Part shown: one piece after another, positions 6,001-8,336 of the stretch | How the letters are laid out: every line of letters begins with the position of its first letter | How positions within the stretch are numbered: position 1 is the first letter of the stretch | Source: a virus | Taxonomy: Duplodnaviria; Heunggongvirae; Uroviricota; Caudoviricetes | DNA length: 8,336 nucleotides | IMG/VR virus record: IMGVR_UViG_2778261169_000006 | Direction: 5' to 3' (one strand) | Position numbers: made by a program

Positions 6001-8336
6001 GAATTCCGATTTTTTGGGCTGTCGTTGGACGATATCCCAGGCTTCCCCAAGCAAGGCTACTTTCATGTGGTTGCCTTCCTTTTTGCGTGGATCTTTCCTG
6101 TCTCTTACGAGTATAGATTTTTGTTCCTGGTCGAGATCTTCCCATCGTAACCGGCATACTTCTCCGATCCGCATACAGGACCACACAGAAAATTTGAGGA
6201 TATCAACGAACGGAATTTTTGAGCATTTATGAGTAGATCGTTGTTGAAGGCCTTCAATGAGCATGTCCAGTTCATCAGATGCTGGTCTACGATTACGACG
6301 GTTTGATTTACCAATCAAACCAAGTTTAAGTAGATATGGGCGAGCGCTTTTCGCTGGGTTTGATGTGTAATTAATTCCATATACAGGTTTGGCAGCATCC
6401 AGAACACTGCCAAGATAACTAACATCGTGGCTAACTGTAGCTGGACCTGCACCAGCGTTGTTTCTTAGCCTGCAATGTTCAATTACGTCATTTTCTGTCA
6501 GTTCAGATAGTTTGATCGCGGAGATGTCACTATCCATAAGCAGTTCCAGCACATATCTTTTAGTACGGCCTGCTTTACCTCCGGCATTTGGGTCATTTAA
6601 ATATTTGTGTAGTAAGTCACGGACTGTAAGTCCGTCAACTGCATTTGATGATGGAATGCCATATAGATCTAATTCCATCACTTTCTGTGTGCCCCATGTT
6701 TTGGCATGAGCATGTTTAGGGAATGTTTTGCTTTCCCTGTAAGTGATAACACCTTTTTCTTTGATAATCACATTACAGCGATAGCGTGGTGTGCCATCGG
6801 ATTTTAGTCGTTTCTCTATGTTATAGTACGCCATTACACGACCTCGTTATTTCGGGTTCCCATAAAACGTGGGAACCTGTACGGGAACCTAACGCGAGAA
6901 AAATAGCCTGAAATGTTCAAAAATGCACGATAATCATGAAACACAAAAAATTAATCAAACCAGCGTGATGCCTGAAAAAACTGACGTTCACTGGAGTGGT
7001 CGGTTTAGCGTTGCACCAATGCTCGACTGGACGGACAGACATTGCCGCTATTTCTTGCGTCTGCTTTCCCGCAATACGTTGCTGTATACCGAAATGGTGA
7101 CCACAGGGGCGATTATTCACGGTAAAGGTGATTATCTGGCGTACAGTGAAGAAGAACATCCGGTAGCGTTGCAACTGGGCGGTAGCGATCCGGCGGCGCT
7201 GGCGCAGTGTGCAAAGCTGGCAGAAGCGCGCGGATATGATGAGATCAACCTGAATGTCGGCTGCCCGTCTGACCGGGTGCAGAACGGCATGTTTGGTGCG
7301 TGTCTGATGGGTAATGCGCAGCTGGTTGCCGACTGCGTGAAAGCGATGCGCGATGTGGTGTCGATTCCGGTGACGGTGAAAACGCGTATTGGCATCGACG
7401 ACCAGGACAGCTATGAATTTCTCTGCGATTTCATCAATACCGTTTCCGGCAAAGGCGAGTGTGAGATGTTCATCATCCACGCACGTAAAGCCTGGCTTTC
7501 GGGGTTAAGCCCGAAAGAAAACCGTGAAATCCCGCCGCTCGATTATCCGCGTGTGTATCAACTGAAGCGTGACTTTCCGCATCTGACAATGTCGATTAAC
7601 GGTGGTATCAAGTCGCTGGAAGAGGCCAAAGCACACCTGCAACATATGGATGGCGTGATGGTCGGGCGCGAGGCGTATCAGAATCCGGGTATTCTGGCGG
7701 CGGTAGACCGGGAGATCTTTGGTTCCTCGGATACCGATGCCGATCCGGTGGCGGTAGTGCGCGCCATGTATCCGTACATTGAGCGTGAACTCAGCCAGGG
7801 GACGTATCTCGGCCATATTACCCGGCATATGTTGGGCTTGTTCCAGGGTATTCCTGGCGCGCGGCAGTGGCGGCGTTATTTAAGTGAAAATGCCCATAAA
7901 GCGGGTGCAGACATTAATGTGCTGGAACACGCGCTCAAACTGGTGGCGGATAAGCGTTAACTTTTCACCAAAAAGTAGTCAAATTCACCACGCCCTGCGC
8001 ACCGTCGCGGGGCGTTTTGCTGTTAAATCAATAGATTATTTTTGGCATGATTCTTGTAATGCCAGCAAGAGATTTCATATTTGGGAGAGCATCATGCTGG
8101 AACTACTTTTTGTGATTGGCTTTTTTGTCATGCTGATGGTCACCGGCGTTTCGTTGCTGGGCATTATCGCCGCGCTGGTTGTGGCGACGGCCATTATGTT
8201 CCTCGGCGGTATGCTGGCATTGATGATTAAGTTGCTGCCGTGGTTACTACTGGCGATTGCGGTGGTGTGGGTTATTAAGGCGATTAAAGCACCAAAAGTG
8301 CCGAAATATCAGCGTTATGACCGCTGGCGTTACTAA

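What the first reader, a model, noticed from the sequence alone, without database searches (positions are those of the whole stretch)
6854..6890. GGGTTCCC / GGGAACCT repeat cluster in the int-dusA intergenic region
Seen: one palindromic-type 8-mer and two direct copies of ACG(T)GGGAACCT within 37 bp, directly upstream of the int start. Inverted and direct short repeats at this position are what integrase core-type or arm-type binding sites, or an autoregulatory operator, would look like. The location coincides with the expected att junction.
Basis: seen in the sequence. Interest (0 to 1): 0.4.

Follow-up and report, generated by a model that had tools for sequence, protein, structure and literature searches.

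The report
Integrase arm-binding sites beside dusA prophage
The three short repeats upstream of the prophage integrase gene are very probably the "arm" docking sites where the integrase's extra N-terminal domain binds to assemble the insertion/excision complex; this is a well-known kind of element, but it has not been described before for phages that insert into the dusA gene.

Summary
GGGTTCCC (6854-6861) is an inverted copy of the word, and GGGAACCT occurs twice directly (6871-6878, 6883-6890). These are the only three GGGAACC in the window. The claim that they sit at the att junction is wrong: the crossover core is ATGCTCGA at 7019-7026, inside dusA, 129-172 bp away. The repeats lie in the integrase-proximal arm of attP.

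Evidence that they are arm-type integrase sites:
- Two more direct copies (GGGAGCCT, GGGAACCC, 11 bp apart) lie in the other attP arm. GGGARCCY occurs five times in the 44-kb prophage, always in the arms.
- About 40 diverged relatives and five intact phage attPs keep the same layout at the same distances from the core (-165/-148/-136 and +44/+55), but the word changes by clade.
- The word tracks Int residues 1-37. Natural chimeras exist that are 98% identical elsewhere but have a different N-terminus and a different word.
- Int is predicted to have an extra N-terminal three-strand-plus-helix domain on a flexible linker.

Int autorepression through these sites is plausible but untested. No binding or mutagenesis data exist. 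This is a new member of a known kind, of moderate interest.

The parts
6854..6861 (-). Arm-type site, inverted copy (GGGTTCCC, i.e. GGGAACCC on the minus strand); starts 165 bp from the core
   Evidence: An equivalent inverted copy with at most 1 mismatch is present in 22 of 54 related upstream regions. It sits at -163 to -165 from the core in the mEp460, YeP1 and Morganella phage attPs.
6871..6878 (+). Arm-type site, direct copy 1 (GGGAACCT); starts 148 bp from the core
   Evidence: Its position at -148 is conserved in four intact attPs that use four different words. The 12-bp spacing to copy 2 is seen in about 40 loci.
6883..6890 (+). Arm-type site, direct copy 2 (GGGAACCT); starts 136 bp from the core
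   Evidence: This is the most conserved of the three sites in the Escherichia/Kosakonia/Phytobacter/Pluralibacter clade.
6896..6905 (.). Conserved A-rich box GAGAAAAATA immediately after the sites (GATAAAGAAAAAATA in most relatives). Its role is unknown; it could be a bending or accessory-protein site, or a -10-like TATTTT on the int strand.
   Evidence: Conserved across the family. No functional test was done.
6919..6967 (+). Phage-borne substitute for the dusA upstream region and 5' end (about 80% identical to native K-12 sequence). It contains the conserved ATGCACGAWAAT box and candidate divergent -10 hexamers (GATAAT on the plus strand at 6929-6934; GATTAT on the minus strand at 6935-6930).
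   Evidence: Alignments. The relaxed promoter scan is; the tool's own scan found none. PMC4482086 and PMC6328086 describe the element-supplied dusA 5' end.
6968..7018 (+). dusA 5' segment that is host-type in this lysogen but phage-type in mEp460 attP and in other lysogens. In attP it belongs to the surrogate.
   Evidence: (window versus 1EC187, EC02, MOD1, mEp460).
7019..7026 (+). att core ATGCTCGA, the only block shared by attP (mEp460) and attB; the crossover region
   Evidence: For phage 1720a-02, whose int-to-core module (window 5737-7026) is 97.4% identical to the window, the crossover was mapped experimentally to a 7-base core within this sequence (PMC6328086).
6655..6834 (-). Codons 1-60 of int: the predicted N-terminal three-strand-plus-helix domain, proposed reader of the repeats
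   Evidence: AlphaFold models (pLDDT 93 for the isolated domain). The word co-varies with residues 1-37.
5737..6834 (-). Tyrosine integrase of the dusA-specific family (365 aa)
   Evidence: Pfam PF00589, E 1e-20. Full-length lambda Int structures align across the whole model. 98.6-100% identical to the Int of phages mEp460, 1720a-02 and Lys8385Vzw.
6923..7960 (+). dusA (tRNA dihydrouridine synthase A), the integration target; its first ~100 nt are supplied or replaced by the phage
   Evidence: Pfam PF01207, E 8e-105; RefSeq annotation.

Best explanation
The three repeats are arm-type binding sites for the N-terminal domain of the prophage's dusA-specific tyrosine integrase. They form the long, integrase-proximal arm of attP, which in the lysogen is the arm of the int-side junction. 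The other arm carries two further direct copies 44-62 bp beyond the core, with an IHF-like site in between. Together the five sites let integrase protomers bridge arm DNA and the core ATGCTCGA inside dusA, building the bent nucleoprotein complex that carries out integration and excision, as in phage lambda. Shown here: the sites exist in both arms; their number, orientation, spacing and distance to the core are conserved across a deep family while the word itself changes; the word tracks the Int N-terminus; and Int is predicted to have an extra N-terminal domain on a flexible linker. Inferred: physical binding by Int, requirement for recombination, and use of IHF. A secondary inference (about 40-50% likely) follows from the position of the sites between the int start codon and any possible int promoter: bound Int may also repress its own gene, as shown for KplE1 IntS and P4 Int.
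For: 1. Both arms carry the word. The far junction of an identical lysogen and the intact attP of phage mEp460 carry GTGGGAGCCTATTGGGAACCCGG at +44 and +55 after the core.
2. Enrichment. GGGARCCY occurs 5 times in the 44,049-bp prophage, and all 5 are in the arms. For GGGARCC, 5 of 8 copies lie in 300 bp of arm DNA (binomial P 8e-10).
3. Conserved architecture with a changing word. About 40 of 54 related int-upstream regions have two direct copies exactly 12 bp apart, about 38 and 50 nt from the int ATG, and 22 also have an upstream inverted copy. Shuffles give 3.3% and 0.09%. The words are GGGAACC, GGGGTGC, GGTGTAC, GGTGTCC, GGATACC, GGGTGAC, TGTATCG and GTAGCAA.
4. Fixed geometry. The sites start at -165/-148/-136 from the core and at +43/44 and +54/55 beyond it in the E. 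coli, Yersinia, Morganella and Pseudoalteromonas phages. In Burkholderia BcepIL02 (36% Int identity) they are shifted by about 10 and 20 bp. The int-side word recurs in the far arm in at most 6 of 5000 shuffles for 4 of 5 attPs.
5. The word tracks Int residues 1-37. The nearest neighbour by N-terminus shares the word in 32 of 33 cases, against 24 of 33 by the rest of the protein. Residues 5, 23 and 30 partition the four main words. Natural chimeras: Morganella phage versus M. morganii L018, 62% identity over residues 1-37 and 98% over the rest, with different words; L016 versus L017, 59% and 92%.
7. An IHF-like AAACAAGTAGTTA lies between the core and the far-arm sites, with counterparts in the Yersinia and Morganella phages.
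8. Int is required for attP formation in phage 1720a-02 (Int 99.7% identical to the window's; PMC6328086).
Against: - There is no binding, footprinting or mutagenesis data for any member of this family. All evidence is comparative.
- Co-variation of the N-terminus with the adjacent sites could partly reflect physical linkage, since a single recombination tract can carry both.
- The Morganella far arm carries mixed words (GGGGTGCT + GGTGTCCT).
- The inverted copy is missing or replaced by a third direct copy in about 15 loci.
- The IHF-like site has one mismatch to consensus.
- No convincing int promoter was found, so the autoregulation part is weak.
Confidence: 0.85

Rival explanations
1. The repeats are purely a transcriptional operator for the divergent int/dusA control region. 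They would be bound by Int or another phage regulator to control int (and perhaps the phage-supplied dusA promoter), with no role in building the recombination complex.
For: The sites lie between the int start codon and any possible int promoter. KplE1 and P4 show that Int-bound sites upstream of int repress it (PMC2951348). Pint of a Vibrio dusA-specific element is active on its own (PMC8409611).
Against: An operator needs neither two further copies on the far side of the core nor base-exact conservation of distance to the crossover across hosts from E. coli to Burkholderia. The far-arm copies are 190 bp or more from int.
Confidence: 0.06
2. The repeats are binding sites for the recombination directionality factor (the PrtN/RdfN-like protein encoded across attP), not for Int.
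For: RDF sites are typically short direct repeats about one helical turn apart in one att arm. A PrtN-family gene lies about 1.3 kb beyond the far arm, and RdfN is the RDF of dusA-specific islands (PMC8409611).
Against: RDF sites are normally confined to one arm, whereas the word here occurs in both. The word tracks the Int N-terminus, including chimeras whose breakpoint is at the N-domain boundary. The region between the sites and the core (6891-6967) remains available for RDF sites.
Confidence: 0.05
3. The inverted pair (6855-6862 / 6870-6877) acts as an RNA hairpin in the int 5' UTR, or in a dusA upstream transcript, controlling translation or stability.
For: An 8-11 bp stem is predicted on either strand. 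The inverted copy and direct copy 1 change together between clades, and there is a paired change in Escherichia sp. MOD1 (GGGTCCCC / GGGGACC).
Against: Folding energy is no better than for shuffles (z -0.31 and -1.36). Direct copy 2 and the two far-arm copies share the word but cannot be part of the stem. Complementarity is imperfect in Kosakonia, Phytobacter, Morganella and Xenorhabdus. The inverted copy is absent, or replaced by a third direct copy, in about 15 loci. No T-run follows the stem, so it is not a terminator.
Confidence: 0.03
4. Chance clustering of a G+C-rich 7-mer.
For: 9 of 200 shuffles of the window reach three copies somewhere.
Against: The clustering, the recurrence in the far arm and the conservation of the layout in about 40 loci with different words are incompatible with chance.
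Confidence: 0.01

Closest known systems
Arm-type sites P1, P2 / P'1-P'3 of phage lambda attP, bound by the N-terminal domain of lambda Int
   Same: About five copies of a short word are distributed over both arms of attP, distinct from the core sequence. One arm is long with distal sites and the other is short with tandem sites about one helical turn apart. There is an IHF-like site between the core and the short-arm sites. Int has an extra N-terminal three-strand-plus-helix domain on a flexible linker followed by core-binding and catalytic domains, and full-length lambda Int structures align across the whole model.
   Different: Int shows no detectable sequence similarity to lambda Int in the N-domain, and the word is different. 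The int gene points away from attP with its 5' end next to the long arm, whereas in lambda the 3' end of int abuts attP and int is expressed from pI/pL (from my own knowledge of lambda). The target is the 5' end of a protein-coding gene, and the phage carries a replacement 5' end between the arm sites and the core.
KplE1 (CPS-53) IntS/TorI module, and satellite phage P4 Int: integrase promoter embedded in the att arm and repressed by Int bound at arm-type sites (PMC2951348)
   Same: int is transcribed away from the att site, so its upstream region is the att arm. The RDF gene lies at the other prophage end (across attP) and is not co-transcribed with int. Arm-type sites sit just upstream of the int start codon.
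   Different: For KplE1, the promoter, start sites and repression were shown experimentally. Here no promoter could be placed with confidence and repression is only inferred. KplE1 targets a tRNA gene (argW), not dusA, and its Int family is different.
dusA-associated integrases and their elements (Farrugia et al. 2015, PMC4482086; Durand et al. 2021, PMC8409611; phage 1720a-02, PMC6328086)
   Same: It is the same family and the same target. The int-to-core module (window 5737-7026) is 97.4-99.1% identical at the DNA level to the sequenced phages mEp460, 1720a-02 and Lys8385Vzw. Integration is in the dusA 5' end at the conserved ATGCTCGA-containing repeat, with a phage-supplied replacement 5' end.
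   Different: Those studies define the roughly 21-bp core repeat, the 7-base crossover, the RDF (RdfN) and the need for Int, but none describes arm-type sites. A search for 'arm-type' or 'arm' gave 0 hits in PMC4482086 and PMC8409611, and no paper in the library combines dusA with a description of arm sites.
Tn916 Int N-terminal domain and AP2/ERF DNA-binding domains (three-stranded sheet inserted in the major groove)

Membership tests
Arm-type sites of a heterobivalent tyrosine integrase (lambda Int paradigm) | Several copies of one short word in both arms of attP, different from the core sequence | tested here: met
   Three copies lie in the int-side arm (6854-6890) and two in the far arm (+44, +55). 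GGGARCCY occurs 5 times in the 44-kb prophage, all in the arms. The same holds for the Yersinia, Pseudoalteromonas and Burkholderia phage attPs.
Arm-type sites of a heterobivalent tyrosine integrase (lambda Int paradigm) | Sites lie at a constrained distance from the crossover, not at it | tested here: met
   The sites start at -165/-148/-136 and at +43/44 and +54/55 relative to the core in four attPs with four different words. In BcepIL02 they are shifted by about 10 and 20 bp.
Arm-type sites of a heterobivalent tyrosine integrase (lambda Int paradigm) | The integrase has an additional N-terminal DNA-binding domain, tethered by a linker, besides the core-binding and catalytic domains | tested here: met
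   AlphaFold gives strands 2-10, 16-26 and 29-38 and helix 41-58 (pLDDT 93), a low-confidence linker at 62-64, then helical core-binding and catalytic domains. Full-length lambda Int aligns over about 365 columns.
Arm-type sites of a heterobivalent tyrosine integrase (lambda Int paradigm) | The N-terminal domain is homologous in fold to known arm-binding domains (lambda, Tn916) | tested here: inconclusive
Arm-type sites of a heterobivalent tyrosine integrase (lambda Int paradigm) | Site sequence co-evolves with the N-terminal domain rather than with the rest of the integrase | tested here: met
   The nearest neighbour by residues 1-37 shares the word in 32 of 33 cases, against 24 of 33 for residues 38 to the end. 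Chimeric pairs give 62% versus 98% and 59% versus 92% identity with different words. Caveat: the N-terminal codons and the int-side sites are physically linked.
Arm-type sites of a heterobivalent tyrosine integrase (lambda Int paradigm) | A site for a DNA-bending accessory protein (IHF) lies between the core and the arm sites | tested here: inconclusive
   A one-mismatch match to WATCAANNNNTTR lies at far arm +21..+33, with one-mismatch counterparts in the Yersinia and Morganella phages. None was found in the int-side arm.
Arm-type sites of a heterobivalent tyrosine integrase (lambda Int paradigm) | Direct binding by the Int N-domain, and requirement of the sites for integration/excision | not testable with these tools
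   This needs EMSA or footprinting and attP mutagenesis. Published work shows only that Int is required for excision of phage 1720a-02 (PMC6328086).
Core-type integrase sites / att junction | Inverted sites flanking the strand-exchange (overlap) region, shared by attP and attB | tested here: not met
   The only block shared by attP and attB is ATGCTCGA at 7019-7026. The cluster is 129-172 bp away and is absent from attB (K-12 empty site).
dusA-specific integrase elements (Farrugia 2015) | int lies adjacent to dusA; insertion is in the dusA 5' end; the element supplies a replacement 5' end; the native 5' fragment is left at the far junction | tested here: met
   (105-nt dusA fragment at the far end); PMC4482086.
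Negatively autoregulated integrase genes with the promoter inside the att arm (KplE1 IntS, P4 Int) | int is transcribed away from att, so its promoter must lie in the att arm; the RDF is encoded at the other prophage end | tested here: met
   The gene order and orientation are as described. A PrtN-family gene lies across attP (L005 3889-4197).
Negatively autoregulated integrase genes with the promoter inside the att arm (KplE1 IntS, P4 Int) | An identified promoter overlaps, or lies just upstream of, the Int-binding sites | tested here: inconclusive
   The tool's scan finds none in 6700-7100. A relaxed scan finds only a weak candidate, TTGATT-17-GATTAT (-10 at 6935->6930), recurring at that position in about 9 loci.
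Negatively autoregulated integrase genes with the promoter inside the att arm (KplE1 IntS, P4 Int) | Int represses transcription of its own gene | not testable with these tools
   This needs a reporter fusion with and without Int in trans.

The most novel reading that the evidence does not exclude
The arm sites may double as a shared control element for a divergent promoter pair. In the lysogen, dusA can only be transcribed from phage DNA, and overlapping -10-like hexamers (GATAAT on the plus strand, GATTAT on the minus strand, at 6929-6935) sit about 40 bp from the sites. Int occupancy of the arm would then set both its own synthesis and the level of the host tRNA-modifying enzyme DusA, coupling host tRNA modification to the prophage's recombination state. 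Separately, the family provides at least seven or eight natural pairs of N-domain and DNA word with modular swaps, which amounts to a readable recognition code for this small sheet domain.
Probability: 0.12. Interest if true: 0.55.

Novelty: new member of a known kind. Interest (0 to 1): 0.38.

Why it matters
The dusA-specific integrases are a very widespread family, found in prophages (including Shiga-toxin phages such as 1720a-02 and phiSTEC1575-Stx2k), in genomic islands and in mobilizable resistance islands. Until now only their core repeat, crossover and RDF have been described. Mapping the arm sites gives the full functional extent of attP, roughly 165 bp on the int side and 65 bp on the other. 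That is what anyone needs in order to build minimal integration vectors, predict prophage borders, or design excision assays for these elements. The family-wide pattern of fixed geometry, interchangeable words, and N-domains swapped together with their sites is a clean natural data set on how arm-binding specificity evolves. It could also guide the design of orthogonal integrases that share one chromosomal target. The result is not a new principle: it is the lambda/KplE1 logic found in another family.

Tried and rejected
1. att junction at 6854-6890: rejected by three-way alignments of the lysogen, the empty site and the far junction and by comparison with intact attP.
2. My own first estimate of a 59-bp core (6968-7026) was too generous. 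Other lysogens and mEp460 attP carry phage-type sequence up to 7018, leaving ATGCTCGA as the shared core.
3. Intrinsic terminator or sigma-70 promoter at the repeats: none found.
4. RNA hairpin: no thermodynamic support and not conserved.
6. Finding the exact source genome among complete E. coli assemblies: not present as a whole. I used NZ_OZ501671.1, which is 100% identical over 6700-7300, for the far junction.
7. Whether K-12's yjbLM region is a decayed dusA island that left an ATCC 25922-type dusA 5' fragment: no such fragment found.
8. IHF-like site in the int-side arm: none within one mismatch.

Full report
**What is in the window.** The window is the right end of a lambdoid prophage joined to the chromosome. 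It contains a side tail-fibre gene (31-3045), a DinI-like gene (5427-5675, minus strand), a tyrosine integrase (5737-6834, minus strand; PF00589, E 1e-20) and then dusA (annotated 6923-7960; PF01207, E 8e-105). The int-to-core module (window 5737-7026) is 97-99% identical at the DNA level to the sequenced phages Lys8385Vzw, SKA5, mEp460, 1720a-02 (an Stx2 phage) and phiSTEC1575-Stx2k. About 742 of 5426 complete E. coli genomes carry it next to dusA.

**Observation.** It is correct. GGGTTCCC lies at 6854-6861, and GGGAACCT lies at 6871-6878 and 6883-6890, 12 bp start to start. GGGTTCCC is not a palindrome but an inverted copy of the word. GGGAACC occurs three times in the 8.3-kb window, all here, against 0.89 expected.

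**Where the att junction really is.** I aligned the window with an unoccupied K-12-type site and with the far junction of a lysogen that is 100% identical over 6700-7300 (NZ_OZ501671.1). The far junction retains a 105-nt native dusA 5' fragment.
- Everything left of about 6968 is phage DNA.
- 6919-6967 is a roughly 80%-identical phage-borne copy of the native dusA upstream region and 5' end.
- Comparison with the intact attP of mEp460 and with other lysogens shows that the phage-type surrogate actually runs to 7018. The only block common to attP and attB is ATGCTCGA, 7019-7026.
- This agrees with the experimentally mapped 7-base crossover of phage 1720a-02, 100 bp into dusA (PMC6328086), and with the semi-conserved att repeat of dusA-specific elements (PMC4482086).
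- The repeat cluster is therefore 129-172 bp from the crossover.

**The same word in the other arm.** The phage DNA beyond the core reads ...AAACAAGTAGTTA...GTGGGAGCCTATTGGGAACCCGG. That is two direct copies, 11 bp apart, starting 44 and 55 nt after the core. It is seen both at the far junction and, contiguous with the int-side arm, in mEp460 attP. In the 44,049-bp prophage GGGARCCY occurs exactly five times, all in the two arms. For GGGARCC, 5 of 8 copies fall in 300 bp of arm DNA (binomial P 8e-10).

**Comparative footprinting.** A scan of one genome per bacterial species returned 52 loci encoding relatives of Int, at 99% down to 43% identity.
- In about 40 of 54 upstream regions there are two direct copies of a word exactly 12 bp apart, about 38 and 50 nt from the int start codon. 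22 also have an inverted copy 5-9 nt further upstream. Shuffled sequences give 3.3% and 0.09%.
- The word differs by clade:
  - GGGAACC/GGGAGCC in Escherichia, Kosakonia, Phytobacter and Pluralibacter
  - GGGGTGC in Yersinia, Izhakiella, Mixta, Sodalis, Serratia and many Xenorhabdus
  - GGTGTAC in other Xenorhabdus, Plesiomonas and Erwinia tracheiphila
  - GGTGTCC in Morganella phage, Proteus, Rosenbergiella gaditana and Aeromonas
  - GGATACC in Shewanella
  - GGGTGAC in Idiomarina and Pseudoalteromonas phage C5a
  - TGTATCG in a Hyphomicrobiales MAG
  - GTAGCAA in Burkholderia phage BcepIL02 (36% Int identity)

- In five intact attPs the far arm carries two direct copies about 11 bp apart. 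They match the int-side word in E. coli, Yersinia and Burkholderia. The first of the two departs from it in Morganella (GGGGTGCT) and in C5a (GGGTCCCC), and C5a also has an inverted copy at +84.
- Positions relative to the core are conserved to the base: -163 to -165, -148 and -136 on the int side, and +43/44 and +54/55 on the far side. BcepIL02 is shifted by about 10 and 20 bp, that is, whole helical turns.
- A fixed, phased distance to the crossover across hosts this far apart is what intasome geometry demands. A simple operator does not need it.

**Link to the integrase N-terminus.**
- Grouping Int sequences by word shows that the word tracks residues 1-37. Residues 5 (N/S/N/T), 23 (L or I/G/G/S) and 30 (I/Y/H/R) partition the four main words.
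- The nearest neighbour by N-terminus shares the word in 32 of 33 cases, against 24 of 33 by the rest of the protein.
- Natural chimeras break the phylogenetic confound in part. The Morganella phage Int and the M. morganii L018 Int are 98% identical from residue 38 on but 62% identical in residues 1-37, and they use GGTGTCC and GGGGTGC respectively. L016 and L017 behave likewise (59% and 92%).
- Caveat: codons 1-37 and the int-side sites are adjacent, so one recombination tract can carry both. The far-arm copies, about 190 bp or more away across conserved sequence, are not explained by that linkage.

**Mechanism proposed.** The three repeats form the long (int-proximal) arm of attP, and the two far copies form the short arm. 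Int N-domains bind them while the core-binding and catalytic domains act at ATGCTCGA. An IHF-like site (one mismatch) between the core and the short-arm sites would supply the bend. The RDF is probably the PrtN-family protein encoded across attP, by analogy with RdfN of Vibrio dusA islands (PMC8409611). All binding steps are inferred.

**Autoregulation.** int points away from attP and, in the prophage, is separated from the early operon. It must therefore have its own promoter in or beyond the arm, as in KplE1 and P4, where Int bound at arm-type sites represses int (PMC2951348). No promoter passes the scan threshold. A relaxed scan gives only a weak candidate that recurs at one position, TTGATT-17-GATTAT with its -10 at 6935->6930, which would put the sites in the transcribed leader. 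I rate autorepression as plausible (about 40-50%) but unproven.

**Rivals.**
- A pure operator fails to explain the far-arm copies and the fixed distance to the core.
- RDF sites are unlikely because the word occurs in both arms and tracks the Int N-terminus.
- An RNA hairpin is unlikely: z-scores are -0.3 and -1.4, copy 2 and the far copies lie outside any stem, and the inverted copy is absent or direct in about 15 loci.
- Chance is excluded.

**Novelty.** The three key papers on dusA-specific integrases describe the core repeat, the crossover, the replacement 5' end and the RDF, but not arm sites. No paper in the searchable library combines dusA with a description of arm-type sites. I cannot exclude a description in a subscription journal. 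This is a new member of a well-known kind, with a tidy family-wide co-variation pattern as a bonus, so interest is moderate.

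Noticed in passing
window 6968-7018: In this lysogen (and in NZ_OZ501671.1) this segment is identical to native K-12 dusA. In mEp460 attP and in lysogens 1EC187, EC02 and Escherichia sp. MOD1 it is phage-type (about 10 differences), and O157:H7 SS NE 1040-1 is a hybrid that switches near 7000. This suggests gene conversion or homologous exchange between the phage surrogate and the native dusA 5' copy at the other prophage end, or phage variants that picked up host sequence.
   Followed up: partly
window ~7003-7011 onward; L003 2800-3070 (E. coli ATCC 25922): E. coli has two unrelated dusA 5' ends. The ATCC 25922 type (331 aa, with zur directly upstream and no yjbLM) matches the K-12 type only from just before the att core onward. 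The divergence boundary sitting at the integration hotspot hints that one of the two 5' ends descends from a past dusA-inserting element. No leftover fragment of the ATCC-type 5' end was found upstream of yjbLM in K-12-type genomes.
   Followed up: partly
window 6929-6935: GATAATC reads as a -10-like hexamer on both strands: GATAAT toward dusA and GATTAT toward int. This could be an overlapping divergent promoter pair inside the conserved ATGCACGAWAAT box. If the dusA promoter is here, the true dusA start would be the ATG at 6968 and not the one at 6923.
   Followed up: partly
rc of L008, nt 145-165 (Morganella phage IME1369_02 far arm): The two far-arm sites use different words (GGGGTGCT, then GGTGTCCT), whereas the int-side arm uses GGTGTCC only. 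Either this N-domain tolerates both words, or the arm is a recombinant left over from the N-domain swap seen against M. morganii L018.
   Followed up: no
L029, L033-L038, L052 (Xenorhabdus); L030, L031 (Serratia); L051 (Pseudomonas lundensis): These Int relatives keep the two direct GGGGTGC sites (three direct copies in L030, L031 and L051) and the ATGCACGAAAAT box. They lack the inverted copy, and within the 200 nt examined they are not followed by recognisable dusA sequence. They may use a different target gene or be rearranged elements.
   Followed up: no
L046-L048 (Vibrio hannami, V. renipiscarius, V. amylolyticus): The Vibrio members (about 50% Int identity) have no 12-bp-spaced repeats at the usual position. 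Instead, GTGCCCA/TGGGCAC-like words recur 140-190 nt upstream of int, so the arm layout may be different in this branch.
   Followed up: no
window 1-5423: The tail-fibre and downstream region is mosaic. It matches other E. coli genomes at 98-99.7% in a different context (next to pinQ, IS3 and tail-fibre assembly genes), and no complete genome matches the whole window. In NZ_OZ501671.1 the equivalent region carries an IS1A insertion and truncated tail-fibre genes.
   Followed up: no
window 5427-5675 (-): A DinI-like gene lies directly downstream of int on the same strand. The mEp460 record annotates a sigma-70 promoter for it that overlaps the int stop codon (L005 1476-1504).
   Followed up: no
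window 6881 and 6864-6866: Among E. coli lysogens, substitutions in the arm fall mostly in the spacers: A/G at 6881 between the two direct copies, and the loop AAAACG/AAAGCG/AAATCG. Exceptions are one change in the inverted site in strain AST262 (GGGTTTCC) and a paired change in Escherichia sp. MOD1 (GGGTCCCC with TGGGGACC) that keeps the two copies complementary.
   Followed up: partly
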